The notes beneath the pieces are model-generated. The model saw only the letters and a list, made by a program, of their open reading frames with translations, ran no database searches and was not told the DNA's origin. Positions 5,912-18,900 of a stretch of 64,000 nucleotides of DNA are shown piece by piece. Made by a program: the position numbers and the translations under genes. The stretch's first letter is position 1. The number at the start of each line of letters is the position of its first letter. Source of the DNA: Patescibacteria group bacterium. GTDB lineage: Bacteria; Patescibacteriota; Minisyncoccia; Phycocordibacterales; Phycocordibacteraceae. The DNA is taken from positions 289 through 64,288 of the forward strand of contig JAGWYL010000002.1 of assembly GCA_018969385.1 (NCBI GenBank), read 5' to 3'.

Positions 5912-6313
5912 ATGTTGATGATCCGATTTCAGCGCATAGGCCGCAAGAACGACCCCGCGTTCCGCATGGTCGTCCTTGAGAAAGCCAGGAGCCCCAAGGC
6001 GGGCCGCCCGCTCGCGCAGCTGGGCTCCTATAATCCGAAGACCAAGGCTTTTTCGGCTGACACTGACGCCATAAAGGACTGGATGAAGAAAGGCGCGCAA
6101 CTCTCTCCTTCGCTCCACAACCTCTTGCTCGCGAAAGGTCTCATCGAAGGCAAGAAGATAAACGTTCTTCCGAAGAAGACTCCTCCCAAGAAGGAAGAGG
6201 AGGCTTCCGCCGCGCCGAAGGCCGAAGAGACCGTCGCCGCTGCGGCGCCTGAAGCTCCCGCGCAGTCGCCCGTCGAAGAGGAGGCCGCGACACCCGCAGA
6301 AGCAGCGGCGTAG
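5912..6313 (+). CDS. rpsP: 30S ribosomal protein S16 with Ala/Glu/Pro-rich C-terminal extension
   Basis: MLMIRFQRIGRKNDPAFRMVVLEKARSPKAGRPLAQLGSYNP matches the S16 family; low-complexity tail. Confidence 0.9.
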   Translation: MLMIRFQRIGRKNDPAFRMVVLEKARSPKAGRPLAQLGSYNPKTKAFSADTDAIKDWMKKGAQLSPSLHNLLLAKGLIEGKKINVLPKKTPPKKEEEASAAPKAEETVAAAAPEAPAQSPVEEEAATPAEAAA

Positions 6314-6402
6314 CGTTCGCACGCCGCCACGCTGGTATACTTACCGCGGCGGGGAGGACGGCTTACTGCTAACCGCTTCTTGTCTCCTGCCTACTATTTA
6401 TT

Positions 6403-6732
6403 ATGGAACCGGACCAGCAATTTCTCGATTACGTCGTGAAGGCCATCGTCGACCATCCGGACGATGTCGTCATCGAGCGCACCGTGGACAACATGGGCGT
6501 TCTCCTTACGCTCACCGTCCACCCGGACGATATGGGCAAGGTCATCGGCAAGCAGGGAAAGATAGCGCAGGAAGCGCTTCGTCCGCTCTTGCGCATCGTG
6601 GGCATGAAGCATAATGCGCGCGTAAACCTGAAGATAAACGAGCCCGTCGGCGGCAAGCGCCTTGAAGGAGGCATGACCACGGGCGGGGTGCTCGACGAGA
6701 TGGATAAGACCATCGAAGACCTGAAGGGATAG
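6403..6732 (+). CDS. KH-domain RNA-binding protein (YlqC/KhpA-like)
   Basis: KH core VIGKQGKIAQEALRPLL; conserved position between rpsP and trmD. Confidence 0.8.
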   Translation: MEPDQQFLDYVVKAIVDHPDDVVIERTVDNMGVLLTLTVHPDDMGKVIGKQGKIAQEALRPLLRIVGMKHNARVNLKINEPVGGKRLEGGMTTGGVLDEMDKTIEDLKG

Positions 6733-6806
6733 CTGACAGCGTACAGCTGACAGGCCATACGTCGAACATGAAACAAATCAAAGCTGTACGCTGCAAGCTG
6801 TAAGCT
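6732..6806. repeat. inverted-repeat pair of the short CAGCGTACAGCTG / CAGCTGTAAGCT motif family
   Basis: cagcgtacagct (6737-6748) and its exact reverse complement agctgtacgctg (6782-6793) flank a 33-nt spacer. Related copies at 38303-38333 and 41106-41138. Confidence 0.5.
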
Positions 6807-6812
6807 TCTCTC

Positions 6813-7502
6813 ATGCCGCGATTTCATCTCATAACCCTTTTTCCTGAAGCGTGCGACGCGTACCTCTCCGCGTCCATCATCGGCCGCGCGCGGAAGGAAA
6901 AGAAGATTTCCGTAGACTATACGAACCCGCGCGATTTCGTAACGAACAGATGGGGCAAGGTGGACGAACGTCCGTACGGCGGCGGTCCCGGCATGGTGAT
7001 GCAAGCGCTGCCGATAGTGAAGGCGACCGAGAAGGCGCTCGGAAAGCGCGCGGGGAAGAAAGCCATCGTCTGGTTCCAGCCGGAAGCGAAGCAGTTCACG
7101 AACAAGGATGCGGACGCGCTCGGGAAGTACGACGAAGTCGCATTCGTCTGCGGACGCTATGAAGGCATAGACGAACGCGCGAAAAAGATCCTGAAGGCTT
7201 TCAAAACTAGGACATCCGATGTCCTAGTTTTGAAAGCCTACGCGGTCGGCGAAGCGGTCTATACCGGCGGGGAAGTGCCGGCGATGGCGATGATAGACGC
7301 CATCACCAGGCGGCTTCCGGGCGTGCTCGGCAAGGACGCGTCCGTCGAGGAGCGCCGCGTGTCCTCGCACGAGGTCTACACGCGGCCGGAGACCATCGAA
7401 TACAGGAAGAAGAGATACAAGGTCCCGCCGGTGCTGCGCACCGGCGACCACGCGAAGATGGAGGCGTGGAAACGTAAGAAGAACGGCGCGAAAAAGAGTT
7501 AG
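6813..7502 (+). CDS. trmD: tRNA (guanine37-N1)-methyltransferase TrmD carrying a 15-codon palindromic in-frame insertion
   Basis: TrmD motifs GRYEGIDER and TGGEVPAMAMIDAITRRLPGVLG. The segment KAFKTRTSDVLVLKA between them is encoded by the 45-bp palindrome. Confidence 0.9.
   Translation: MPRFHLITLFPEACDAYLSASIIGRARKEKKISVDYTNPRDFVTNRWGKVDERPYGGGPGMVMQALPIVKATEKALGKRAGKKAIVWFQPEAKQFTNKDADALGKYDEVAFVCGRYEGIDERAKKILKAFKTRTSDVLVLKAYAVGEAVYTGGEVPAMAMIDAITRRLPGVLGKDASVEERRVSSHEVYTRPETIEYRKKRYKVPPVLRTGDHAKMEAWKRKKNGAKKS
7196..7240. repeat. 45-bp perfect palindrome (21-bp arms, 3-nt centre) inside trmD, in frame
   Basis: aggctttcaaaactaggacat-ccg-atgtcctagttttgaaagcct. Core TAGGACATnnnATGTCCTA is shared with 14730 and 55283; outer GCTTTCAAAAC arms resemble the large element family. 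Confidence 0.85.
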
Positions 7503-7623
7503 ACGGCCGAGGTTCTCCGACCCGCCACGCGCTCGATCTGTCCCCGCGAAAGAGGGTCCGATTCTAGTCTTTCGCATGAACAGCTCTTCGCGCGTGGCGG
7601 GTCTTGAAACGGATTCTAGTATT

Positions 7624-7660
7624 CCAAAAAAGAGAAGGCCGCCTTCATGGGGCGGCCTTT
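7624..7660 (-). terminator. intrinsic terminator for the minus-strand histidine phosphatase gene
   Basis: Plus strand reads aaaaaaga-aaggccgcc-ttcatgg-ggcggcctt; on the minus strand this is a hairpin followed by TCTCTTTTTT. Confidence 0.6.
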
Positions 7661-7681
7661 CGCACTGATAGGACTGGAAGA

Positions 7682-8338
7682 TCAATCGAAGTCGTCGAGG
7701 CCGATGACCTCGAGATTCCCGACGTCGGATTCCTCGCCATCACCGATTGCGAATCGGAACCCGTCGGTCTCGCCGAGAATCGTATACTCGATCGTATGGC
7801 CTTCAATCGAACCCGGGAATCCTCCGGCGAAGAGTACCATCGCTGGAATCAGGCTGCCGTGGCCGACAACGAGGATTTCGGTGCTCTCGTCGGGAAGCTT
7901 TGCGAGCTCCCTGAAGAGCGCATCCGCCGCATACAACCCGTAGCAGTTGAGCGCGGCTTTGAAAGCCGGATCTTTACAGTAGGTCGCAAGCGACGCGACG
8001 CCGTATTTCACGTACGCGTCGTCGAGCGTCTTGCCGAGCGTGGTAGACGGGTCGACGATGCCGAACGCGTCGACGCGGATGATATGCGTCTCGCTGATGC
8101 CGCTCACATATGATGCCGTCTGAACGGCGCGTTTGGCAGGCGACGCGAAGGCCGCGTGATACTTCGGCGACAAAAGCGCCTCCCGGCGGTCGGTCGATTG
8201 CCTCGCGCCGAGGAAAGACATGCTGCGAGCGTTATCCATCTCGTATGCGCTCATCCTTTCGGAGAGCGCCTTTTTCAGTTCTTCCGTCAGCGTGACGGCA
8301 TTTGCATGCCGCAGCGCGGTAATGCGACGTGTTGTCAT
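7682..8338 (-). CDS. histidine phosphatase family protein (phosphoglycerate mutase-like / SixA-like)
   Basis: N-terminal RHANA variant of the RHG motif and C-terminal VVGHGSLI. Start moved to the internal ATG (MTTRRITALRH) at 8338. Confidence 0.75.
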   Translation of the reverse strand: MTTRRITALRHANAVTLTEELKKALSERMSAYEMDNARSMSFLGARQSTDRREALLSPKYHAAFASPAKRAVQTASYVSGISETHIIRVDAFGIVDPSTTLGKTLDDAYVKYGVASLATYCKDPAFKAALNCYGLYAADALFRELAKLPDESTEILVVGHGSLIPAMVLFAGGFPGSIEGHTIEYTILGETDGFRFAIGDGEESDVGNLEVIGLDDFD

Positions 8339-8471
8339 CGGAACACTCCATATGTCAGAGGGCGCGCCGCGCCCGTTCGTCCCTACGGCCCCAGCGGCTT
8401 TCGGTCTGATTTCAACATAGCACGAAAAATTGGTATTGTCAAAATAGGGCGGAAATGCTAGCGTTTGCCGC

Positions 8472-10538
8472 ATGGAACTCATCCGTTCGTTCGCACGGAT
8501 TGGGAAGGATGATGCCGCTCTCGCCGGCGGGAAGGGCGCGTCCTTGGGAGAGATGACACGGGTCGGCATACCGGTGCCGCCCGGATTTGTCATCCTCGCG
8601 GGCGCGTTCGAGCGGTTCATCGAGGAGACGGATGTCAATGTGGAAATAGACGCGCTCCTTAGCACCGTGGATACGCGAGACATGCACACGGTGGAAGAAG
8701 CGTCCGGCAAGATTCAGTCGCTCATCCAGCAAGCGACGATGCCCGAAGACATCCGCACGGCAATCATGCAGAGCTTCACGGAGCTCGGCGCGGAATTCGT
8801 CGCGGTACGCTCAAGCGCGACCGCAGAGGACAGCGCGTCGGACGCGTGGGCCGGCCAGCTCGACACGTACCTCAACACCACGGAAGCGGATGTGGTCGCG
8901 AACGTGCAGCGGTGCTGGGCGTCCCTCTTCACGCCGCGCGCCATCTTCTATCGTTTCGAGAAGGGACTCGACGCGACGAAGATATCGGTGGCGGTCGTCG
9001 TGCAGAAGATGGTGCAGTCGGACGCAGCCGGCATCGCATTCTCCGTGCATCCGGTTACGGAGGATTACAACCAGCTCATCATCGAAGGCGGCTGGGGACT
9101 CGGCGAAGCAGTCGTTTCCGGACAGATAACGCCGGACTCGTACGTGGTCACGAAAGAACCGCGCGTCATCATCGACAAGAACATCTCCGAACAAGGTCGC
9201 GGACTGTTCCGCAAGGAAGGGGGCGGAAACGAATGGAAAGAGCTCGGCGCGAAAGGGAACGAGCAGGTGCTCTCTGACGAACAGATTCTCGCGCTTGCCG
9301 ATATCGTCATCGGCATCGAAGGGCACTACGGTTTCCCGGTGGATGTCGAATGGGCGATGGAGGACGGTACGTTCTACATAACGCAGAGCCGGCCCATCAC
9401 CACGCTCACCCCGCCGGTCGCGAAGGAGCCGCCCGATGGTGAAGAAGAACGCGCGAAAAGTGATTCTGAATCATCAACGGAGCGCGGAAACACAGCCGCA
9501 TACGTGAGAGAGATTAAAGCGCTCGATTGGTACCAGGACTGGTCCGGCCTCTATTCGCAGATAGAAGCATCGCTCGACGCCGACGCGTACTTCGGTCATT
9601 TTGAGAACGCGTGCGGCATGCAGTTCTCTCACGCGCTCGTGACTCTCATCGGGGAGACGGCTATCGGGTGGCTTCCGACGAGCGAAGGGGAAGCGATAGG
9701 TGCGCACCTCGTGCGCAAGCTTCAAGAGCCCGCGTTCTTGAAAGAGTGGACGGAGAATTTCCGCAACTATTTCGATCAGGTCAGCGCATTCCTGAAACTG
9801 CCTCGAGAAGAGCTCCTCGCCCGTTACCGGGAATATGCAGACTTATATCCGCAACTGGCTCCCTATACCATCGGCACGAAGCTTGCGTTCAATGCGCTCC
9901 CGCTCGGAAGCGAGCCTATAGCGGCGGAACTGGAGAAGGTCAGGAAATATACGGAACGAATCTATAAGGATTCGGCACTCATGACGAGCGAGCTTTGTCG
10001 CACCATAGCGGAGCGTAGCGGGTATCCGACGGGTGCGGTCCGTACGCTGACGGTCGACGAGATTTCACGATACGGGACGAACGGCACGCTTCCTTCGCAA
10101 TCTACGCTCGAAGCGCGCGCACTAGCCGGTGCCGTGTATCTCATGCCGGGCAAGAGCGTTCTTCTCTCTCGCGACGAAACTGAAGACATCCTCGCGTCAT
10201 TTACGTCCGGCGTGATGAAGGACGGCGCGCTTGTCGGGACGTCCGCGCATCCGGGTATCGTGCAGGGCACGTGCCGCATCGTCTTCGATTTTCGGGACGC
10301 GGTCATGCACGACGGCGACATCCTGGTCACGCCCATGACCAATCCGTACTTCGTCCCGCTCATGAAGAAAGCGGGCGCCATCGTCACGGACGGTGGCGGG
10401 ATGCTCTCGCACGCGGCAATCGTCGCGCGGGAACTCGGCAAGCCCTGCATTATCGGCACGAAGGTCGCGACGCAGGTACTCAAAGACGGCGACATGGTGG
10501 AAGTGGATGCGGAGAAGGGGGTCGTACGGAAGGTATGA
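8472..10538 (+). CDS. PEP-utilizing enzyme: PpsA/rifampin-phosphotransferase-like ATP-grasp + central domain + swivel phospho-His domain, no PEP/pyruvate-binding TIM barrel
   Basis: N-terminal GGKGASLGEMTRVGIPVPPGF (PPDK_N ATP-grasp); C-terminal GGMLSHAAIVARELGKPCIIGT (mobile His domain). 688 aa, so no room for a C-terminal PEP-binding domain. Confidence 0.85.
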   Translation: MELIRSFARIGKDDAALAGGKGASLGEMTRVGIPVPPGFVILAGAFERFIEETDVNVEIDALLSTVDTRDMHTVEEASGKIQSLIQQATMPEDIRTAIMQSFTELGAEFVAVRSSATAEDSASDAWAGQLDTYLNTTEADVVANVQRCWASLFTPRAIFYRFEKGLDATKISVAVVVQKMVQSDAAGIAFSVHPVTEDYNQLIIEGGWGLGEAVVSGQITPDSYVVTKEPRVIIDKNISEQGRGLFRKEGGGNEWKELGAKGNEQVLSDEQILALADIVIGIEGHYGFPVDVEWAMEDGTFYITQSRPITTLTPPVAKEPPDGEEERAKSDSESSTERGNTAAYVREIKALDWYQDWSGLYSQIEASLDADAYFGHFENACGMQFSHALVTLIGETAIGWLPTSEGEAIGAHLVRKLQEPAFLKEWTENFRNYFDQVSAFLKLPREELLARYREYADLYPQLAPYTIGTKLAFNALPLGSEPIAAELEKVRKYTERIYKDSALMTSELCRTIAERSGYPTGAVRTLTVDEISRYGTNGTLPSQSTLEARALAGAVYLMPGKSVLLSRDETEDILASFTSGVMKDGALVGTSAHPGIVQGTCRIVFDFRDAVMHDGDILVTPMTNPYFVPLMKKAGAIVTDGGGMLSHAAIVARELGKPCIIGTKVATQVLKDGDMVEVDAEKGVVRKV

Positions 10539-11986
10539 AGCTGCGCGAACGAGTGGAGGCGGTGCAGGACTGGGCAATCCTTAACAGCAGCGGAGTGCCG
10601 TACATACTAGGCGTCGCGCTCCGTCAATTCACAGAAGAAGTACGGAAGCGCTATCCCGACAATACCGTCATGCCGATGTGCGGTGCGCATTTCACGAAAG
10701 CGGGTTCGGTCATCCAGTTCCTTGCAGCCGCAGAACCGTATGGCCGCTCCTTCGAGAAGATAATCGCTGAGCCGGAGATGCTCGCTCGCGCGTATGCGGA
10801 CTTCGAAGCAGCCGAAGAATCGCTTAAGGCGTTTGCTGTGAAGTCGCAAGAGGACGAAGAGTATCGCGAGTTCCAGTACCCGGCATTCATACGGGCGTAT
10901 GATGCTATGTACGCTTCCGGACTACTGGTCGACGGCACGCTCATTTCCGGAGAGAAGGTATTCTCGTCCGTCTTGGAGCGGTACCCGGCTCATGCGCAGG
11001 CACTCCGCTCTTTCGCGCAATCCGAAGGGCTTACATTCAATGCACGATATCGCCGTGCTGAGTTGCGCTTCGCGAAAGAGATTGAAGAGGGAAGCGTGAG
11101 TCAAGCCGAAGCCGCCGTCTCGCTCGCACGGGACTTCTACTGGATGCACAACAATTACAAGAACGTTTCGGCGCTGCCCGTCTCATTCTTCGCAGGACAG
11201 CTTGAGGAAGCGCGCAAAGAGTCATCGGATAGCCGTGACACGGAGCTTGCGGAACTTGATACGTATGCGGAGCATCGCGCCGCCTTATGTGCGTCGCTCC
11301 GGCGCGAAGCTGCTCTCTCAGACGCAGACTACGAGACGCTCACGTGGTTCGGACGCATCACCTGGTGGGTCGATAGGCGCAAGGAGTGCAACCTCATCGC
11401 GAATCACCTCATAGGTAAGCATCTCACCCGTGTAGCGGCACAGCACGACATTCCTTACGAGGACGCCGCTTTTCTTCTCCCGTGGGAACTGGAAGCCGTT
11501 TTCAGCGGCAAGCGTACGATTGACTCCTTCAATCTGTCTGCGCGAAGAGAGGAGAGCATATACTTCCACGACGAAGACGGCGAAGGATTCTTCGTCACTG
11601 GAACAGAGTCCAAGGAGCTTTGGCGTAAGATATCGCCGCCTGTCTCTTCCGAGGATGCGGAAATCAAGGGCACGGTAGCCCAAAAGGGCGTGGCGCGCGG
11701 CATCGCGCGTATCGTGCCGGTCGCGCACCATCCAGGCACGTTCAATTCTGGCGATATCCTCGTCACCGGCATGACGCGGCCGGATTTCCTCGGGCTCATG
11801 AAGAAGGCCGCCGCTTTCGTCACGGACGAAGGCGGCATAACCTGCCACGCCGCCATCGTCGCCCGCGAGATGAAGAAGCCGTGCGTCATCGGGACGAAGG
11901 TCGCGACGCAAGTCCTGAAGGACGGTGACCTCGTGGAAGTGGATGCGGAGAAGGGAGCCGTGCGCATCATCGAGCGTGCGGCATAA
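10535..11986 (+). CDS. PEP-utilizing swivel-domain protein, paralog 2 (distinct N-terminal region, no ATP-grasp)
   Basis: ATGA overlap with the upstream stop; C-terminal GGITCHAAIVAREMKKPCVIGTKVATQVLKDGDLVEVDAEKG is nearly identical to genes 1 and 3. Confidence 0.75.
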   Translation: MKLRERVEAVQDWAILNSSGVPYILGVALRQFTEEVRKRYPDNTVMPMCGAHFTKAGSVIQFLAAAEPYGRSFEKIIAEPEMLARAYADFEAAEESLKAFAVKSQEDEEYREFQYPAFIRAYDAMYASGLLVDGTLISGEKVFSSVLERYPAHAQALRSFAQSEGLTFNARYRRAELRFAKEIEEGSVSQAEAAVSLARDFYWMHNNYKNVSALPVSFFAGQLEEARKESSDSRDTELAELDTYAEHRAALCASLRREAALSDADYETLTWFGRITWWVDRRKECNLIANHLIGKHLTRVAAQHDIPYEDAAFLLPWELEAVFSGKRTIDSFNLSARREESIYFHDEDGEGFFVTGTESKELWRKISPPVSSEDAEIKGTVAQKGVARGIARIVPVAHHPGTFNSGDILVTGMTRPDFLGLMKKAAAFVTDEGGITCHAAIVAREMKKPCVIGTKVATQVLKDGDLVEVDAEKGAVRIIERAA

Positions 11987-11993
11987 TAGCTGT

Positions 11994-13010
11994 ATGGAAC
12001 CCATGCATCTGACGAAAGAATACGAACGCGATATATCCGTCGTACTCGAGGAATGGTGGACACGCGGATTCGTCGACCTCATTCCTAAGCGATACGGACT
12101 TACGAATCCGGACCAGCCGTACGTCGTCTTCTATTCGACAGGAGAGAATCTCCAGATATGGGAGCATAAAGCGGCGTTCGATCGGTTCAAGGATTGGCTC
12201 CTTGGGAAGAACCAGGAAAGCCCGGCCTTCCTTGAATCCGTTATCGCCGCGTACCGTCCTGTCGCAGAGAAGGCAGCGGCTCATTTCGCGCGCGGTGCAG
12301 AAACCGAGCTGGACGCGGTCAAGGAGTACGCCGAACTCGCGCGTGAGGGCATCATGCTTTTCTCGATTTGGTATTACAGCGGGTATGACGAGCGGACACC
12401 GGAGGAGGTCCGGAAACTCGCGATAGCGCTTCGCGCGACTGACGAATTCTTCGCGCGGAACGATAAGCACATAAAGGACTCGCTCATCGCCCGCGGCGTT
12501 CCTGCGGAGTACGCCGGACTCGTCTTCCATGAAGAGTTCATTAGTCCGCCGCCGCGCGAGGTGCTTGCTACGCGCGCGGGCGGCATGGTGTCCATAGATG
12601 GCGATGTGCGTTTCAATATGACACTTACGGATTTTGCGGCTGCGCATCCCGGATATTCGTTCGAAGGACTGCACGCAGCAGGCGCTCCGGTGACGGAACT
12701 CAAGGGACAGGTGGCGCAGAAAGGGAAGGTGAGAGGTGCCGTGCGCATCGTAAAGAACAAGCGGCAGATGGAGAACGTCGCGGAAGGGGATATCCTCGTC
12801 TCGCCCATGACCACGCCTGATTTTCTTCCTGCGATGAAGAAAGCGGCGGCATTCGTGACCGATGAAGGCGGCATCATGTGCCACGCCGCCATCGTCGCGC
12901 GCGAGATGAAGAAGCCGTGCGTGATAGGGACGAAAATCGCTACGCAGGTGTTGAAAGACGGCGATCTCGTGGAAGTGGATGCGGAGAAGGGAATCGTGCG
13001 GAAGCTCTAG
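11994..13010 (+). CDS. PEP-utilizing swivel-domain protein, paralog 3 (distinct N-terminal region, no ATP-grasp)
   Basis: C-terminal GGIMCHAAIVAREMKKPCVIGTKIATQVLKDGDLVEVDAEKG; start at internal ATG (MEPMHL) 8 nt after the gene-2 stop. Confidence 0.75.
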   Translation: MEPMHLTKEYERDISVVLEEWWTRGFVDLIPKRYGLTNPDQPYVVFYSTGENLQIWEHKAAFDRFKDWLLGKNQESPAFLESVIAAYRPVAEKAAAHFARGAETELDAVKEYAELAREGIMLFSIWYYSGYDERTPEEVRKLAIALRATDEFFARNDKHIKDSLIARGVPAEYAGLVFHEEFISPPPREVLATRAGGMVSIDGDVRFNMTLTDFAAAHPGYSFEGLHAAGAPVTELKGQVAQKGKVRGAVRIVKNKRQMENVAEGDILVSPMTTPDFLPAMKKAAAFVTDEGGIMCHAAIVAREMKKPCVIGTKIATQVLKDGDLVEVDAEKGIVRKL

Positions 13011-13119
13011 GATGTCGCGACGCCTCCTTTCCTTAGTAGTTTTTGCATCGTAGTTTCGCGTTTCCCATCAGGCTGGATGCCTAGGCGGTAGCGCGGGCGA
13101 AAGTGGTACACTGGCAGGC

Positions 13120-13476
13120 ATGGAGATCCTGGTGACGCGCGAGCCGACTGATGAGAAGACGCTTCGCGCGCTCGCGGATGCGTGGTTCGGCGACATGGTG
13201 AAGGGCGCGATAGACATCGCGCGCGGCACCCTTGCGCTCGGCGGCGACTGGCACATGGATGCGAACGTAAAGCTCATAGAGGACGGCTCGTCGCAGGAGG
13301 ACGTATGGGGATTCAACGTCTATCCGGAGAAGCGCGGCGATGACGCCATCGAATACATATCGCTCATCAACATCCGTCCGCGGCAGGGGAATCGCGATAT
13401 GGAACTACAGGATCCGACCCTGCGCAGGAAGGTGCGGGAGACGGTCGCGCACGCGATACCCTTCCTCGGCCTATGA
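13120..13476 (+). CDS. hypothetical protein
   Basis: 118-aa ORF in the same orientation as neighbours; compact soluble-looking composition; no motif recognised. Confidence 0.5.
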   Translation: MEILVTREPTDEKTLRALADAWFGDMVKGAIDIARGTLALGGDWHMDANVKLIEDGSSQEDVWGFNVYPEKRGDDAIEYISLINIRPRQGNRDMELQDPTLRRKVRETVAHAIPFLGL

Positions 13477-13754
13477 ATCGCGACGCGCGCTTTTATTTCA
13501 TGAATCTGTGCGCGGACGTCGCGCGCTCGACCGCCGCGGCCGAGCGCGGGGATGAAAACGCGCTTATCAATTCGCGCGCGCGGATAGGGAAGACGCTCGA
13601 ATACCTGCGCCGCGAAAAGAATCCGGCGGCGTATGAAGAAGGACTGCTGCTCGTGCGCGGTTTCGAGCTTGCTCGCGCATCCGGAGCGCTTCCATCTTTC
13701 GGTTCGAACATGAGCGTGCTCATGCGTCCGCTCTCGTCGCGCGAACTCGTTTGA
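13473..13754 (+). CDS. hypothetical protein
   Basis: 93-aa ORF with ATGA start/stop overlap to the upstream ORF (translational coupling). Confidence 0.4.
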   Translation: MNRDARFYFMNLCADVARSTAAAERGDENALINSRARIGKTLEYLRREKNPAAYEEGLLLVRGFELARASGALPSFGSNMSVLMRPLSSRELV

Positions 13755-13930
13755 ACGCGGGACGGATTTGCGAACGCAGCGAGTCGTTGCATACTTGTCG
13801 TATCGCCCGCCTCCCTTAGGGCGGACGAGGGATGATGCAGTGTCACGGTGCGGGACTATGCGCGCGGTGACGGGGTACTGGCACTCCCATCATCCGGCCA
13901 GGACAGGCCATAACGGTAAGGAGAAGGTCT

Positions 13931-14599
13931 TTGAAGATGATAGACGTGAACAAACTCCTTGTGACGGGACAGGTGCCCGCGTACCTGGTGGCGAAGTGGG
14001 AAGAGAGGTGGGGTGTGAACCCCACGGTCATCGCGGCGAAGGTTTTCCGGAATCAGCGCATCGTTGACCGGACGAACCTCATTGCGTTCGGCATTACGGG
14101 TGCGGTTCTTATGCTGACTATCCTCTATGGCACGGCGAAGCTCATCTGGTCCCACCTGTCGCCGGATGACGTGACGTACCTGATGGCGTCGGACCTCGCT
14201 GTCGTTTTCATCTGCGGGTCCGTGGGCATGACGGCAATGATGCGGTTCAAGACGCTGGACTTCGAGCTGTTTCCGCGTGAAGCATGCGGGTTCGACGTCC
14301 TCTACAGCTGGTTCGTCTCCGCAAGCGGAAAGACCGCAGAGGAGCTTGCGCCGCAGGACGGCACCCGGCTTCGCGCCATCGCGAAGCAGATACTCGTGGA
14401 CCTCGCGCTCATGGTACTCAAGGCGGAAGCCAAGACGAGAAGCGCGGACGGGAGCGAACCCGACACGAAGCTCAAAGAAGCCGAGGTCGCGTGTCGCCGC
14501 ACCTTCGACAAGGGTCTCATCGAGATGCAGCGTCTCTTGCCCATTGATGCGGACAAGAACGTCTACTACCGCGAAGCGAGAAAGCAATTCGCTTCGTGA
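13931..14599 (+). CDS. hypothetical membrane protein (2 TM), distant paralog of 14990..15625
   Basis: AAGGAG-like RBS upstream; two hydrophobic helices; C-terminal helical region with weak similarity (ELAPQDG..LRAIAKQILVDLA vs ELPKDSE..LRMLADKVLFDAA). Likely true start is the ATG (MIDVN) 6 nt downstream of the track TTG. Confidence 0.55.
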   Translation: MKMIDVNKLLVTGQVPAYLVAKWEERWGVNPTVIAAKVFRNQRIVDRTNLIAFGITGAVLMLTILYGTAKLIWSHLSPDDVTYLMASDLAVVFICGSVGMTAMMRFKTLDFELFPREACGFDVLYSWFVSASGKTAEELAPQDGTRLRAIAKQILVDLALMVLKAEAKTRSADGSEPDTKLKEAEVACRRTFDKGLIEMQRLLPIDADKNVYYREARKQFAS

Positions 14600-14613
14600 G
14601 CCCTCATAGGGCG

Positions 14614-14647
14614 GGGCGGACCATCAATGGCCCGCCTTTCTTTTTAT
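14614..14647 (+). terminator. intrinsic terminator (GC hairpin + TTTCTTTTT), near-identical to the one at 15646
   Basis: ggggcggaccatcaatggcccgcc followed by tttctttttatt, immediately after the stop at 14599. Confidence 0.6.
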
Positions 14648-14729
14648 TCCGAAGTCCGGCCGCGCGACTGAAAGAGCAGGGAAATTGCGGGCAAGATGTT
14701 AACGACTCACCGCGTTCGCAAATCCGTCC

Positions 14730-14764
14730 CATAACGCTAGGACATCGGATGTCCTAGCGTTATG
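14730..14764. repeat. 35-bp palindrome with TAGGACAT-N3-ATGTCCTA core
   Basis: cataacgctaggacat-cgg-atgtcctagcgttatg; same 19-bp core as in trmD (7196) and at 55283. Confidence 0.7.
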
Positions 14765-14827
14765 TCCTCACTGATTGCGCTCGCGCGTTCGCGGTCATGC
14801 GAGCAGGTAAGCGGCAAGGCACAGAAG

Positions 14828-14856
14828 TTGCGTCCGTGCTAATTTTATGGTATAGA
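14828..14856 (+). promoter_or_regulatory. candidate sigma70-like promoter for the 14990 gene
   Basis: -35 TTGCGT, 17-bp spacer, -10 TATAGA preceded by TGg (TGGTATAGA); then a structured leader (ccacctc...gaggtgg, ccgcagc...gctgcgg). Confidence 0.4.
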
Positions 14857-14989
14857 TTTTCCACCTCGTGTCTTGCCTTAGACAGAGGTGGATGTTGAAA
14901 GTTCCGCAGCTTCCTTGAAGCCTGCTGCGGATGAGGGTTGAATCCTCGATACGTCCGGCGGTTGAACGCCTATAGGCTTGGAGTGAACC

Positions 14990-15625
14990 TTGATGAAACT
15001 GAGATATCTCGTCCACTGTGCGGACAGACGGGAGATTCCCGAAACGCTCGAACTGAACTGGGCGAAACGTACCGGTTTCATGCCGGTGAAAGACGCTATC
15101 AGGCTCGAGCACGGCTGTGCGAACTACCGGCTCGTCGGCTATGTGCTCTGCTTCCTGCTTGCGACACAGCTCATCACGCTGTTCGGCCTGCGGCAAGAAG
15201 ATATGTATCTGTCTTCCGGCGTTGCTCACTTCATCGGCATATCCGTGGGAGTTCTCATCGCGAGCATCGTCTTAGCTTTCGTCTGGGGCTACGGCCGGAT
15301 AGCGGAAGTCGGCGACAAGGCGAGGTATGAAGACGCGAAAGCATTTGCCGCAGCGTTCGCTGCGTTCCTCGAGTGGACCTGCAAGTGGCCACAGGAGTTG
15401 CCGAAGGATTCCGAGGAACTCCGCATGCTTGCGGACAAAGTGCTCTTCGACGCTGCGGGACAGCTTCAGGAACACGAAGCGAGCGACCACACGGCAAAAG
15501 GCTACCTTGCGCACCACGGCGCGCTCCATGCGGAGTTCACGAAGCGGCACACGGCGCTCGTCATGATGGGGCTTGCCGTCCCAGACTGGTCTGACTATTT
15601 CAAGAGCGGCGCAAAGGCCGCGTAA
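14990..15625 (+). CDS. hypothetical membrane protein (2 TM), distant paralog of 13931..14599
   Basis: Same architecture (short N-terminal region, 2 TM, ~110-aa helical C-terminus) and weak sequence similarity to the upstream gene. Confidence 0.55.
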   Translation: MMKLRYLVHCADRREIPETLELNWAKRTGFMPVKDAIRLEHGCANYRLVGYVLCFLLATQLITLFGLRQEDMYLSSGVAHFIGISVGVLIASIVLAFVWGYGRIAEVGDKARYEDAKAFAAAFAAFLEWTCKWPQELPKDSEELRMLADKVLFDAAGQLQEHEASDHTAKGYLAHHGALHAEFTKRHTALVMMGLAVPDWSDYFKSGAKAA

Positions 15626-15645
15626 ACGGTTTCTTTCGCTTTTTT

Positions 15646-15680
15646 GGGGCGGACCAGCGATGGCCCGCCTTTCTTTTTGT
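15646..15680 (+). terminator. intrinsic terminator, near-identical copy of 14614..14647
   Basis: ggggcggaccagcgatggcccgcc followed by tttctttttgtt; 3 mismatches over 38 nt versus the copy after the upstream paralog. Confidence 0.6.
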
Positions 15681-15939
15681 TCCCAGCACCCTTGCCCACG
15701 CCGCTTGCGCATCGGCCCTTGGCCGTGAGCGTTGTCCACAACGCGGAAGCGGGTGTGGGGGCTTGCGCCTATGCACGGAGGCTGGTATCTTTAGGACTAC
15801 CAGAGCGGATTGAGTAACGGTGGGGCATCTGGGGGCCACATTTTAATTACCAAGAAGCGTCTCGATATGACGAGAGACGTCCTCCGTACCTGCGCGGAGC
15901 TTTCGTTATTTTCCGACCTTCTCTAAGGACCTTTCCTCT

Positions 15940-18900
15940 ATGCAGAACAAGCCCCTTACCCAGAAGACCTTCGGCGCATACCGCGCGCCGCGCGTCGAGT
16001 TCCCGGACCTCGTCGGCCACCAGCGCGAGTCTTTCGCGTGGTTCCTCAAGGAAGGAATCGGCGAGCTCCTCAAGGAGTTTTCGCCGATTCAGGACTATTC
16101 CGGCAAGAAATTCTCCCTCTCGTTCGAAGGATTCGAGCTCGGAGAACCCAAGTATGACGAGCAGTTCGCGCGCGAGAACCTCCGCACGTACGAGGCGCCC
16201 CTCAAGGTTTCCGTGAAGCTCCTTAATAAGACGCTCGGCACCGAGAAGACGCAGGACATCTTCTTGGCCGATATACCCGTGATGACCCCGCACGGCTCGT
16301 TCATCGTATCCGGCGTCGAGCGCGCCATCGTCCCCCAGCTCGCGCGCTCCTTCGGCGTCTTCTTCCAGTCCGAGCTCATCCGCGGCAAGCAGTACTTCGG
16401 CGCGAAGATAATCCCCGCACGCGGCGCGTGGATAGAGATAGATTCCGAAGCCGACGGCGCCATCTCCGTGAAGCTCGACCGCAAGCGCAAGTTCCCCATA
16501 ACCTCGCTCCTGCGCGTGTTCGGCGCGGAGACGGATGCCGCCATCCTGAAGCTGTTCGCGGGCAACGACGCCGTGCTCTCTTCGATGAAGGCCATGCTCG
16601 AGCACGACCCCGCGAAGACCGTCGAGGAGGCGTACGTCGAGATACACCGCCGCATGCGCGACGGCGACCTCGCCACCGCGGATAACGCGAAGACGTACGT
16701 GAACAGCCTCTTCGCCCCCGAACGCTACGACCTCTCCAAGGTGGGACGCTTCCGCCTGAACCAGCGCTTCGGCCTTTCGACGGCGGAGAAGGACCTCAAG
16801 AAGAAGTCGCTTTCCATCGAGGACCTCGTCCGCATCATCGCGGAGATGGTCCGGCTCAACATCGACCCGTCCGCCGAAGCCGACGACATCGACCACCTCG
16901 GCTTCCGCCGCGTCCGCTTCGTGGGCGAACTCATCCAGCAGCGCCTGCGGGTCGGCATGTCGCGCATGAAGCGCAATATCCAGGACCGCATGAGCACAAT
17001 CGAGAGCGACACCACGCTCCCGATGTCGTTCGTGAACCCGCGTCCGTTCGCCGCGTCCGTGAAGGAATTCTTCACGGCGAACCAGCTTTCGCAGTTCATG
17101 GACCAGCAGAACATCCTCGCGGAACTCGAGAACATGCGCACCCTCTCCGCGCTCGGCCCCGGCGGCCTCACGAGAGAGCGCGCGGGCTTCGAGGTGCGCG
17201 ACGTCCATCCCTCGCACTACGGGCGCCTCTGTCCAATCCATACGCCGGAAGGACAGAACATCGGCCTCATCCTGCGCCTTGCGACGCACGCGCGCACGAA
17301 CGACTTCGGCGTCATCGAGACGCCGTATGCCAGGGTCAAGAACGGCAAGGTCACCGAAGAGATCGAATACCTGAACGCGCTCGACGAAGCGAACGAGATA
17401 ATCGCGCACGGCGCGACGGAAGTCGACGAGAAGGGACGCATCGTCCCCGAGACGCTCGAAGCGCGCCGCGGCGGCGAACCGGCGGTGGTGGCCCGCGAAG
17501 AGGTCACGTTCATCGACGCCTCCACCTACCAGATGTTCTCCGCGGCGACCGCCATGATCCCGTTCGTCGACCACGACGACGCGAACCGCGCGCTCATGGG
17601 TTCGAACATGCAGAAGCAGGCGACCCCGTGCCTCATCCCCGAGGCTCCCTTGGTCGCGACCGGCATCGAAGGGCATGCGGCCCGGAACACCGGACGCCTC
17701 ATCACCGCCGAGGAAGCGGGCGAAGTGTCGTTCGTCGACGCGCGCCGCATCGCGGTGAAGAACAAGGACGGGAAGGCGAAAGAGTACCGCCTCCAGGGAC
17801 TCACGCAGACGAACCAGAACTCCGCATTTAGCCAGCGCCCGTCCGTGCGCCTCGGCGACAAGGTGAAGAAGGGCGATGTCATCGCGGACGCCTCTTCGAG
17901 CGATCGCGGACAGATGGCGCTCGGCCAGAACGCGCGCGTGGCGTTCATGAGCTGGTCCGGCGCGAACTACGAGGACGCCATCATCATCAGCGAGCGGCTC
18001 GTGGAGCAGAGCAAGTTCACGACGGTCCATATCGAAGATTTCGACTGCGTCGTGCGCGACACGAAACTCGGCAGCGAAGTCACGACGCACGACATCCCGA
18101 ACGTCGGCGAGATGCGCCTCAAGAACCTCGATGAGGAGGGCGTCGTGCGCATCGGCGCGGAAGTGCGTCCCGGCGACATACTCGTCGGCAAGGTGACGCC
18201 GAAAGGCGAGACCCAGCTTACGCCGGAAGAGCGGCTCCTCCGCTCCATCTTCGGCGACAAAGCGAAGGACGTGAAGGACACGTCGCTCAGGATGGAAGGC
18301 GGCAAGCGCGGCCGCGTCATCGGCGTCCGGGTGTTTTCGAGGGAAAAGGGCGATCAGCTCGAGAGCGGCACCATCAAGAAGATAGTCGTCACCGTGGCGC
18401 AGGTGCGAAACGTATCCGTGGGCGACAAGCTCGCGGGACGCCACGGCAACAAGGGCGTCATCTCCCGCGTGCTTCCGGTGGAAGACATGCCGTACGACAA
18501 GGACGGCAATCCCATCGACGTCATCCTGACGCCGCTCGGCGTCCCGTCCCGCATGAACCTGGGACAGATACTCGAACTCCACCTCGGGCTTGCGGCGCAT
18601 ACGCTCGACTATCAGGCCGTCGTGCCGCCGTTCGCCGGACCCACCGCGGACGAGATTCACGGCGAGCTCGAGAAGGCGGGCTTCCCGCGTTCCGGAAAGA
18701 TGACGCTCTATGACGGCCGCACGGGCGTCGCGTTCGGCCAGCCTATAGCCGTCGGCTACATGTACATCCTGAAGCTCCATCACATGGTGGAGGACAAGAT
18801 TCACATGCGCTCCATCGGTCCATACTCGCTCATCACGCAGCAGCCCTTGGGCGGCAAGGCGCAGAACGGCGGCCAGCGCTTCGGAGAAATGGAAGTCTGG

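What the first reader, a model, noticed from the sequence alone, without database searches (positions are those of the whole stretch)
8472..13010. Tandem cassette of one PpsA/rifampin-phosphotransferase-like enzyme and two N-terminally divergent paralogs that keep a near-identical swivel phospho-His domain
Gene 1 (688 aa) has the PPDK_N ATP-grasp domain, a central domain and the mobile His domain (GGMLSHAAIVARELGKPCIIGT). It lacks the PEP/pyruvate-binding TIM barrel, the architecture of rifampin phosphotransferase-like kinases rather than true PEP synthase.

Genes 2 and 3 overlap or abut gene 1 (an ATGA overlap, then an 8-nt gap). They lack the ATP-grasp domain and have unrelated N-terminal/central regions. 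They end with the same swivel-His domain (GGI(T/M)CHAAIVAREMKKPCVIGTK...DAEKG).

This suggests a split phosphotransfer system. One ATP-grasp kinase could charge its own swivel His domain and, in trans, those of two different substrate-binding modules. Alternatively the cassette is a diversifying family of small-molecule phosphotransferases, e.g. for antibiotic inactivation.
Basis: partly seen in the sequence, partly recalled or inferred. Interest (0 to 1): 0.55.

Follow-up and report, generated by a model that had tools for sequence, protein, structure and literature searches.

The report
One kinase head, three swivel-histidine modules
This candidate-phyla-radiation (CPR, ultra-small bacteria) genome has a three-gene cassette with a single ATP-binding kinase domain and three divergent "substrate-pocket plus phospho-histidine arm" modules, a small example of a widespread and apparently undescribed multi-module version of rifampin-phosphotransferase-like dikinases.

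Summary

- **G1** (8472-10538) has an ATP-grasp domain, a central domain and a swivel-His domain, and no PEP/pyruvate TIM barrel.
- **G2** (10535-11986) and **G3** (11994-13010) have only a swivel-His domain plus N-terminal domains with no Pfam match.
- **Not fragments or recent copies.** Both have same-length orthologues. Their His domains are closest to those orthologues, and synonymous sites have diverged.
- **The N-domains are related.** Profile comparison links them through G1's central domain. The G2 model aligns with rifampin phosphotransferase (RPH) over 366 residues. So the cassette is one ATP-grasp plus three paralogous substrate-binding/swivel modules.
- **The arrangement is widespread.** In 48 related CPR and DPANN (ultra-small archaea) loci there is always one ATP-grasp. 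Twenty-three of them carry 2-7 His modules. Sixteen of 86 loci have a stand-alone ATP-grasp. Fusion proteins carry up to six swivel domains.
- **Modules swap position.** Each module type occurs both fused to the ATP-grasp and alone.
- **A phosphatase is usually nearby.** A His_Phos_1 or LMWPc gene abuts many arrays, including here (7682-8338, minus strand).

Best reading: G1's ATP-grasp charges its own His domain and those of G2 and G3 in trans, as in the characterised two-component dikinases HpeHI and PpsAB. Substrates are unknown.

It is a new variant of a known kind. Interest 0.6.

The parts
7682..8338 (-). Histidine-phosphatase-superfamily (His_Phos_1) gene, 218 aa, divergent from G1. It keeps the RH(A) and GHG catalytic motifs. 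It is the conserved phosphatase partner of the arrays.
   Evidence: Pfam His_Phos_1 E 7e-5, 23 bits against a cut-off of 21.7. The start at MTTRRITALRHAN was found. Homologues lie within 0-600 nt of, or inside, arrays in about 25 related loci. A promoter-like site at 8442-8414 and a terminator-like hairpin at 7659-7635 on the minus strand bracket the gene.
8472..10538 (+). G1, 688 aa: a complete single-chain dikinase (ATP-grasp + substrate-binding domain + swivel His domain) with no PEP/pyruvate TIM barrel.
   Evidence: Pfam. NCBIfam scores are below every equivalog cut-off: PEP_synth 435 against 739.75, and RIF_Ptrans_rph 379 against 999. PDB sequence hits to PEP synthase and RPH cover the ATP-grasp and His domains only.
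8520..9449 (+). ATP-grasp (PPDK_N) domain of G1, residues 17-326. It is the only ATP-binding domain in the cassette and in the 64-kb window.
   Evidence: Pfam PPDK_N E 3e-98. There is one grasp-HMM hit in the window. It is 63-77% identical to ATP-grasp domains of related arrays and 60-71% identical to those of 80 CPR/DPANN loci.
9450..10226 (+). Linker and central substrate-binding domain (SBD) of G1, residues 327-585, of the short ~240-aa type.
   Evidence: It has no BLAST match to G2 or G3. Its family profile matches the G3 N-domain profile (hhalign probability 96.9%, E 1.5e-10, 194 columns) and the G2 N-domain profile (95.6%, E 1.2e-8, 229 columns). Homologues occur behind the ATP-grasp (L072, L025), as later modules (L041, L011, L015), and as stand-alone ~355-aa proteins (L056, L053, L076).
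10227..10535 (+). Swivel phospho-His domain of G1, with catalytic H647 at 10410-10412 in GGMLSHAAIVARE.
   Evidence: Pfam PEP-utilizers E 1e-26. Motif position.
10535..11986 (+). G2, 483 aa: a long-type SBD (residues 1-372) plus a swivel His domain (373-483, H438 at 11846-11848). It has the architecture of the 'H component' of two-component dikinases. Its start overlaps the G1 stop (ATGA).
11994..13010 (+). G3, 338 aa: a short-type SBD (residues 1-233) plus a swivel His domain (234-338, H297 at 12882-12884).
13120..13476 (+). DUF5674 gene, 118 aa, just downstream of G3. Possible accessory gene; membership uncertain.
   Evidence: Pfam DUF5674 E 1e-30. Homologues lie near arrays in only 2 other loci, L027 and L053.

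Best explanation
The cassette is a three-module, 'hub-and-spoke' member of the RPH-like small-molecule dikinases. These are PEP-synthase relatives that lack the PEP/pyruvate barrel.

Proposed mechanism:
1. The ATP-grasp domain of G1 binds ATP.
2. A swivel-domain histidine attacks the beta-phosphate.
3. The gamma-phosphate is released as Pi and AMP leaves.
4. The phospho-His domain swings to the substrate-binding domain (SBD) of its own polypeptide. There it phosphorylates a hydroxyl group of the bound substrate.

G1 does this in cis. G2 and G3 have no ATP-binding domain. Their swivel domains (H438 and H297) are charged in trans by the G1 ATP-grasp, as HpeI charges HpeH and PpsB charges PpsA. 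Each of the three divergent SBDs should give a different substrate specificity. The divergently transcribed His_Phos_1 phosphatase belongs to the same system. It either removes the phosphate from a downstream product or resets the phospho-His domains.

Shown here: domain architecture, fold homology to RPH, paralogy of the three modules, and conservation of arrays with a single ATP-grasp.

Inferred: trans charging, small-molecule substrates and the role of the phosphatase.
For: (1) Architecture. There is one PPDK_N and three PEP-utilizers domains. The catalytic GGxx[S/C]H motif is intact in all three.

(2) Fold. G2 aligns with RPH over 366 residues and G3 over 170. No other PDB chain aligns beyond the ~100-residue swivel domain. 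This is the same result reported for HpeH (PMC12167813).

(3) The SBDs form one superfamily.
- hhalign gives G1c-G3n E 1.5e-10 and G1c-G2n E 1.2e-8.
- 174 of 194 SBDs from related loci form one BLAST cluster at 1e-5, and they split into 83 clusters at 1e-20.

(4) Single hub.
- Every one of 86 related loci has exactly one ATP-grasp.
- Among 48 loci with >=8 kb of downstream sequence, 23 have 2-7 contiguous His modules.
- L007 has 12.

(5) Obligate trans cases. Sixteen of the 86 loci have an ATP-grasp ORF that stops 0-8 residues after the domain and is followed by SBD-His genes.

(6) Rosetta-stone fusions (one polypeptide elsewhere joins the parts that are separate genes here) and shuffling.
- G2-type is fused to an ATP-grasp in P0017.
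- G3-type is fused in L067, L030 and L060.
- The G1-type SBD occurs as stand-alone modules.
- The central domain of L004_a is 34% identical to the stand-alone module L002_d.
- Polyproteins carry one PPDK_N and up to 6 swivel domains.

(7) Selection pattern.
- ATP-grasp domains are 60-77% identical and His domains about 55% identical across all modules and genomes, while SBDs are barely alignable.
- His domains are no more alike within genomes than between them (55.7% against 54.7%).
- The G3 His domain is closest to its orthologues (84, 79 and 74%).
- Only 54% of conserved residues share a codon between G2 and G3.
- This fits all His domains docking onto one conserved ATP-grasp surface.

(8) Tight operon. 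An ATGA overlap, then a 7-nt gap.

(9) Biochemical precedent. HpeHI, CreHI and PpsAB are two-component dikinases with a transient complex, and His-to-Gln substitution abolishes activity (PMC12167813).

(10) Phosphatase adjacency. A phosphatase abuts or lies inside the array in about 34 loci. The kinase of the Hpe/Acv pathway is likewise co-localised with a phosphatase (PMC12624787).
Against: - No experiment or complex model shows that the G1 ATP-grasp docks the G2 or G3 swivel domains.
- G1 has its own His domain, which could compete for the ATP-grasp.
- About half of the related loci have a single module, so the multi-module state is not obligatory.
- Only about 65 kb of this genome is visible. 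Another ATP-grasp or another phosphodonor elsewhere cannot be excluded.
- The substrates are unknown. The SBD models rest on shallow alignments (5 and 7 sequences), and the G3 match to the RPH SBD covers only about 70 residues beyond the swivel domain.
- The phosphatase is a weak Pfam match (23 bits), and its target is unknown.
Confidence: 0.65

Rival explanations
1. These are three independent enzymes. G1 is a self-contained RPH-like kinase. G2 and G3 do not use G1. Their His domains would be loaded by another donor, such as PEP through a PEP-utilising enzyme or PTS-like protein, or a separate ATP-grasp protein encoded elsewhere.
For: G1 has all three domains and needs no partner. Swivel domains are shared with PTS Enzyme I, PPDK and pyruvate kinase, which use PEP. 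Only one contig of the genome is visible.
Against: No PEP-binding domain is found in any of the three genes. All 86 related loci have exactly one ATP-grasp at the head of the array. Sixteen have it as a stand-alone gene, which has no function without trans-acting swivel proteins. G2-type and G3-type modules are fused to this same ATP-grasp in other genomes.
Confidence: 0.15
2. G2 and G3 are decaying remnants: N-terminally truncated or frameshifted copies of a duplicated G1-like gene, or products of recent duplication or gene conversion, with no function of their own.
For: They lack the ATP-grasp domain. They sit directly behind a full-length paralogue and share a very similar C-terminus.
Against: Both reading frames are intact. 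Same-length orthologues are 46-59% identical, and their alignments start at residue 1. The catalytic His motif is conserved. His domains group with their orthologues rather than with each other, and synonymous sites have diverged. The AlphaFold models are confident and compact (pLDDT 78 and 87). The same module types recur in dozens of CPR and DPANN genomes.
Confidence: 0.03
3. The system is a phosphorelay or regulatory device rather than a set of metabolic kinases. Phosphate would pass between swivel domains, or to a protein or polymer target. The adjacent His_Phos_1 or LMWPc phosphatase would act as a phospho-His or phosphoprotein phosphatase that resets the system.
For: A phosphatase gene sits next to or inside the array in about 34 loci. 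Two of the His_Phos_1 neighbours have SixA (phosphohistidine phosphatase) as their best NCBIfam match, though sub-threshold at 30 and 25 bits. LMWPc is a protein-phosphatase/arsenate-reductase fold. Polyproteins carry up to 6 swivel domains.
Against: The SBD fold matches the small-molecule pocket domain of RPH. All characterised members of this branch (RPH, HpeHI, CreHI, PpsAB, PigC) phosphorylate small molecules (PMC12167813, PMC4844700). No swivel-to-swivel transfer is known. The SixA matches are far below the cut-off of 74.5.
Confidence: 0.12

Closest known systems
Two-component small-molecule dikinases: HpeHI (Rhodococcus), CreHI (Corynebacterium), phenylphosphate synthase PpsAB (Thauera), AcvAB (Sphingobium)
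   Same: The ATP-grasp function is separable from an 'H' component made of an RPH-like substrate-binding domain plus a C-terminal swivel His domain. G2 has this architecture and aligns with RPH over 366 residues. The proposed mechanism is also shared: ATP beta-phosphate to His to substrate hydroxyl, yielding AMP and Pi. In the Hpe/Acv pathway the kinase is co-localised with a phosphatase.
   Different: - The known systems are 1:1 pairs. Here one ATP-grasp serves three modules, and up to 12 in relatives.
- In this window the ATP-grasp is itself fused to the first module.
- G2 and G3 (483 and 338 aa) are much smaller than HpeH (~640 aa), and no sequence similarity is detectable outside the swivel domain.
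- There are no aromatic-catabolism genes nearby.
- The hosts are CPR bacteria and DPANN archaea rather than free-living degraders.
Rifampin phosphotransferase (RPH; PDB 5hv1/5fbs)
   Same: G1 has the same three-domain order (ATP-grasp, substrate-binding domain, swivel His) and lacks the TIM barrel. RPH is the only solved structure that covers the G2 and G3 N-domains.
   Different: - The NCBIfam RIF_Ptrans_rph score is 379 against a cut-off of 999, so G1 is not an orthologue.
- The central domain is about 260 aa, against about 430 aa in RPH.
- Identity to RPH outside the ATP-grasp and His domains is 16-21% and only structural.
- There is no evidence that rifamycins are substrates.
PEP synthase (PpsA) / pyruvate phosphate dikinase
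   Same: The ATP-grasp and swivel domains are homologous and give the best sequence hits (8a8e, 9dae). The catalytic His motif has the same chemistry.
   Different: The PEP/pyruvate-binding TIM barrel (PEP-utilizers_C) is absent from all three genes. TIGR01418 scores 435 against 739.75. The annotation 'pyruvate, water dikinase' given to orthologues such as P0007 is therefore wrong.
Prodigiosin ligases PigC/RedH/HapC and glucan water dikinase
   Same: They show further uses of the ATP-grasp plus swivel-His chemistry with a non-PEP acceptor domain.
   Different: All are single-chain enzymes with one swivel domain. The NCBIfam PigC and RedH scores are far below their cut-offs. There are no carbohydrate-binding modules.

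Membership tests
RPH-like single-chain dikinase (G1) | N-terminal ATP-grasp (PPDK_N) domain | tested here: met
   Pfam PF01326 at residues 17-326, E 3e-98. PDB hits include the RPH ATP-grasp domain in 5fbs, 5hv1 and 5hv6.
RPH-like single-chain dikinase (G1) | C-terminal swivel His domain with a GGxx[S/C]H motif within about 50 residues of the C-terminus | tested here: met
   PF00391 at residues 613-683. H647 is 41 residues from the C-terminus.
RPH-like single-chain dikinase (G1) | Central substrate-binding domain with the RPH rifampin-binding-domain fold | tested here: inconclusive
The evidence is indirect. Its central domain profile matches the G2 and G3 N-domain profiles (hhalign 95.6% and 96.9%), and the G2 model aligns with the RPH substrate-binding domain.
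RPH-like single-chain dikinase (G1) | Orthology to rifamycin-inactivating Rph (NCBIfam equivalog score) | tested here: not met
   NF041857 scores 378.6 against a cut-off of 999. NF000283 scores 279.6 against 1700.
RPH-like single-chain dikinase (G1) | Phosphorylation of rifampin | not testable with these tools
   This needs an enzyme assay or a resistance assay.
PEP synthase (PpsA) | C-terminal PEP/pyruvate-binding TIM barrel (PF02896), and a score above the TIGR01418 cut-off | tested here: not met
   There is no PF02896 hit in G1, G2 or G3 at E<=1. TIGR01418 scores 435.3 against 739.75 for G1 and about 109 for G2 and G3.
Two-component small-molecule dikinase, H component (G2, G3) | RPH-like substrate-binding domain followed by a C-terminal swivel domain with catalytic His, and no ATP-grasp | tested here: met
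- There is no PPDK_N domain in either.
- H438 and H297 are present.
Two-component small-molecule dikinase, I component | Separate ATP-grasp protein without a swivel domain, encoded beside the H component | tested here: not met
   In this window the ATP-grasp is fused to its own SBD and His domain in G1. The feature is met in 16 of 86 related loci, where the ATP-grasp ORF ends 0-8 aa after the domain.
Two-component small-molecule dikinase | ATP-dependent trans phosphorylation of the H-component His by the ATP-grasp component | not testable with these tools
   This needs a labelling assay. Complex modelling was not available.
PTS Enzyme I | HPr-binding subdomain plus a C-terminal PEP-binding barrel | tested here: not met

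The most novel reading that the evidence does not exclude
Multi-module dikinase 'batteries' may be a lineage-typical invention of ultra-small episymbionts, both CPR bacteria and DPANN archaea. Each battery has one highly conserved ATP-grasp hub that charges many fast-diverging substrate-pocket/swivel modules, encoded as gene arrays or as polyproteins with up to six swivel domains, and is paired with a phosphatase. The batteries would have been exchanged between the two domains of life. Their role would be to trap, scavenge or neutralise a panel of host-derived small molecules by phosphorylation.
Probability: 0.3. Interest if true: 0.8.

Novelty: new variant of a known kind. Interest (0 to 1): 0.6.

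Why it matters
Swivel-domain dikinases are textbook single-chain machines, and two-component versions were characterised only recently, as 1:1 pairs. A system in which one ATP-binding head serves several different acceptor modules would be a new way of organising this chemistry.

It is common in CPR and DPANN organisms. Their tiny genomes would not be expected to keep 3-12 paralogues without strong need, and their dependence on hosts is poorly understood.

These genes are currently annotated as 'PEP synthase / pyruvate, water dikinase' or counted as rifampin-resistance genes. That distorts metabolic reconstructions (gluconeogenesis) and resistome surveys of these lineages.

The cassette in this window has only three modules and one phosphatase, so it is a compact candidate for biochemical testing.

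Tried and rejected
- **Recent duplication or gene conversion of the His domain: rejected.** Within-genome and between-genome identity are equal. His domains group with their orthologues. 46% of conserved residues use different codons.
- **Frameshifted single gene: rejected.** Separate same-length orthologues exist.
- **Cryptic ATP-grasp or PEP-binding domain in G2 or G3: rejected**.
- **Direct G2-G3 N-domain homology: not significant.** BLASTP finds nothing and hhalign gives E 0.02. The link exists only through the G1 central-domain family.
- **PDB sequence searches: little gained.** They returned only ATP-grasp and swivel hits. A neighbouring phosphatase had no PDB sequence hit.
- **AFDB fold search: not run.** The library was unavailable.
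- **First Pfam batch: failed** because it exceeded the residue limit.
- **Literature: no description of multi-module arrays.** Searches used phosphohistidine swiveling domain / Patescibacteria, PF00391 + CPR, two-component or small-molecule dikinase, RPH + Patescibacteria, and PEP synthase + DPANN + CPR. One resistome survey merely counts rph-like genes in CPR (PMC8651080).
- **Other neighbours as conserved partners: not supported.** DUF5674, isochorismatase, the HD gene and unnamed ORFs occur in too few loci.
- **Promoter and terminator scan: uninformative for G1-G3.** Counts over the region were close to shuffled expectation, and no promoter-like site lies upstream of G1. The only sites with a plausible reading are the two flanking the minus-strand phosphatase gene.
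Full report
**1. Observation**

The window holds three co-directional genes.
- G1 is at 8472-10538 (688 aa).
- G2 is at 10535-11986 (483 aa). Its start overlaps the G1 stop as ATGA.
- G3 is at 11994-13010 (338 aa), after a 7-nt gap.

Pfam gives the following.
- G1 has PPDK_N at residues 17-326 (E 3e-98) and the PEP-utilizers mobile domain at 613-683.
- G2 has only PEP-utilizers, at 404-474.
- G3 has only PEP-utilizers, at 263-333.
- No PEP-utilizers_C barrel is found in any of them.

NCBIfam places all three below every curated cut-off. For G1, PEP synthase TIGR01418 scores 435 against 739.75 and RIF_Ptrans_rph scores 379 against 999.

The His domains are 75% identical between G2 and G3 and 62-64% identical between G1 and either. 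BLASTP finds nothing else between the proteins. The GGxx[S/C]HAA catalytic motif is present once in each gene and nowhere else in the 64 kb. The only corrections are the 7-nt gap and that 'near-identical' applies mainly to the last ~47 residues.

**2. Organism and gene models**

G2 is 100% identical to a hypothetical protein of a Patescibacteria (CPR) MAG. NCBI calls a shorter start there (436 aa). Orthologue alignments begin at residue 1 of the 483-aa model, and the same is true for G3. The neighbouring genes are housekeeping ones: RNase R, rpsP, trmD and rpoB.

**3. G2 and G3 are real, old genes**

- G2's N-domain has full-length orthologues of ~495 aa (38-40% identical over the N-domain, 46-48% over the full length).
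- G3 has orthologues of ~340 aa (42-50% over the N-domain, 51-59% over the full length).
- All of these carry PF00391 only.

I aligned 41 His domains from related loci.
- Mean identity is 55.7% within genomes and 54.7% between genomes.
- G3's His domain is closest to those of its orthologues (84, 79 and 74%).
- G2's closest matches, all at 73%, are its orthologues and G3.

At the DNA level the G2 and G3 His domains are 71.6% identical. Only 54% of conserved residues use the same codon. The similarity therefore reflects purifying selection. It is not recent duplication or gene conversion.

**4. What the N-domains are**

The AlphaFold models are usable: G3 has pLDDT 86.7 and G2 has 77.8. Both begin with a beta-alpha-beta-beta unit followed by a helical bundle.

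The same pattern was reported for HpeH, the swivel component of a characterised two-component dikinase (PMC12167813).

Profile-profile comparison links the three substrate-binding domains (SBDs).
- G1 central domain against G3 N-domain: probability 96.9%, E 1.5e-10, 194 columns.
- G1 central domain against G2 N-domain: probability 95.6%, E 1.2e-8, 229 columns.
- G2 against G3 directly: not significant (E 0.02).

So the cassette is one ATP-grasp plus three paralogous [SBD-swivel] modules.

**5. Comparative genomics**

Orthologue contexts show larger arrays.
- Each begins with one PPDK_N protein, followed by 3 to 12 PF00391-only genes.
- L007 has a stand-alone 313-aa ATP-grasp and 12 His modules.
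- L002_a and L005_a contain two His domains each.
- L009_a contains at least five.

An exhaustive profile search with the G2 family found 6,543 cluster representatives at E<=1e-30. Many of the best are proteins of 800-2648 aa with 2-6 matched stretches. That count includes proteins scoring through multiple or very similar His domains, so it measures the array-type family rather than G2 orthologues.

Pfam on the top hits shows:
- P0015 has one PPDK_N and six PEP-utilizers domains.
- P0018 has four PEP-utilizers domains, with PPDK_N in the middle.
- P0017 (802 aa) has PPDK_N and one PEP-utilizers domain; the G2-family profile matches its residues 324-798, so it is an ATP-grasp fused to a G2-type module.

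Some of these proteins are labelled archaeal.

A scan of GTDB species genomes with the ATP-grasp alignment found at least 528 relatives. The best 80 are 60-71% identical to G1's ATP-grasp. They come from many CPR lineages and from DPANN archaea: Woesearchaeota, Nanoarchaeota, and a complete Iainarchaeum chromosome.

HMM census of these loci:
- Every one of the 86 loci that carry an ATP-grasp has exactly one.
- Of 48 loci with >=8 kb of downstream sequence, 23 have one His module, 23 have 2-7 contiguous modules, and 2 have none in range.
- Sixteen of the 86 loci have an ATP-grasp ORF that ends 0-8 residues after the domain.

Modules are interchangeable.
- G1's SBD type occurs directly behind the ATP-grasp, as a later module, and as stand-alone ~355-aa proteins.
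- G3's SBD type is fused behind the ATP-grasp in L067, L030 and L060.
- The central domain of L004_a is 34% identical to the stand-alone module L002_d.

Among 200 modules, SBD length is bimodal, at ~200-300 and ~350-450 aa. Of the 194 SBDs of at least 150 aa, 174 form one BLAST cluster at 1e-5, and the set splits into 83 clusters at 1e-20.

**6. Phosphatase partner**

The minus-strand gene at 7682-8338 is a His_Phos_1 member (E 7e-5, just above the gathering score). Homologues lie inside arrays or within ~600 nt of them in about 25 loci. An LMWPc phosphatase does so in about 9 more. Two of the His_Phos_1 neighbours have SixA as their best NCBIfam match, but far below the cut-off. The characterised Hpe/Acv pathway likewise co-localises its kinase with a phosphatase (PMC12624787).

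**7. Mechanism**

Established knowledge for RPH and for HpeHI/PpsAB is as follows (PMC4844700 abstract; PMC12167813).
- The swivel His takes the beta-phosphate of ATP bound in the ATP-grasp.
- Pi and AMP are released.
- The domain delivers the phosphate to the acceptor bound in the SBD.
- In the two-component enzymes the ATP-grasp protein works in trans through a transient complex.

I infer that G1 works in cis and also charges G2 and G3 in trans. Each SBD would confer a different, unknown specificity.

The strongest support comes from three points: the invariant single hub, the stand-alone hubs, and the fusions. The selection pattern also fits: a highly conserved hub and His domains, with fast-diverging SBDs.

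Not shown: docking, transfer, substrates and the phosphatase target. I give the trans-charging model 0.65.

**8. Rivals**

- Independent loading from another donor: 0.15.
- A regulatory or phosphorelay role involving the phosphatase: 0.12.
- Decaying fragments: 0.03.

**9. Comparison and novelty**

By architecture the system belongs to the RPH-like, two-component small-molecule dikinase branch. It is not an orthologue of RPH, PpsA, PigC or HpeHI.

The one-hub, many-module organisation was not found in any paper I could search. This covers the gene arrays, the polyproteins with up to six swivel domains, the CPR/DPANN distribution and the phosphatase pairing. I rate it a new variant of a known kind, with interest 0.6. 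The window's own instance is a modest three-module example, and its function is inferred rather than demonstrated.

Noticed in passing
P0015 (2648 aa), P0016, P0018; L009:2-7099: There are giant polyproteins with one PPDK_N and 4-6 swivel His domains. L009 holds a contig-truncated ORF with at least 5 His domains. These look like whole arrays fused into one chain, which is unprecedented for swivel-domain enzymes.
   Followed up: partly
L011, L013, L015, L023 (CP064981.1, complete Iainarchaeum chromosome), L040, L045, L061, L071 compared with window 8472-9449: The ATP-grasp domain is 62-69% identical between this CPR bacterium and DPANN archaea. That is far more than expected across domains and suggests inter-domain gene transfer among ultra-small symbionts.
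   Followed up: partly
window 10535-10675: The NCBI record for this MAG starts G2 at a downstream codon (436 aa, P0001). Orthologue alignments support the 483-aa start, which overlaps the G1 stop (ATGA).
   Followed up: yes
L007:19055-20499: An SBD-like ORF (350 aa, no His domain) is followed immediately by a 129-aa ORF that is only a swivel His domain. This is either a three-way split or a frameshift. L007 also has His-less ORFs of 180 and 347 aa right after the stand-alone ATP-grasp.
   Followed up: no
window 13120-13476: A DUF5674 gene sits directly downstream of G3. Homologues also lie near arrays in L027 and L053. The ORFs that follow (13473-13754, 13931-14599, 14990-15625) have no family match.
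   Followed up: partly
window 6001-16000: GC content is 58-59% across this stretch, against 62-67% in the rest of the window. The dip also covers rpsP, trmD and the unnamed ORFs, not only the cassette.
   Followed up: no
L017, L025, L039, L046, L063, L072, L074, L087: Several GTDB MAG records that carry this CPR/DPANN-type gene are labelled Gammaproteobacteria, Bdellovibrionales, Acidobacteria or Methanosarcinales. Most are 'TPA_asm' records, and one is on a 914-kb contig. These are probably taxonomic mislabels or mis-binned contigs.
   Followed up: no
P0007 (Parcubacteria C7867-004) and PMC8651080: G3 orthologues are annotated 'pyruvate, water dikinase', and CPR resistome surveys count such genes as rifampin phosphotransferases. 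Neither label is supported by domain content or by NCBIfam cut-offs.
   Followed up: partly
window 8442-8414 and 7659-7635, minus strand: A promoter-like site (TTGACA-17-TATGTT, with a TG extension) and a strong terminator-like hairpin with a T-run bracket the His_Phos_1 gene. This suggests it is a separate transcription unit divergent from G1-G3.
   Followed up: no
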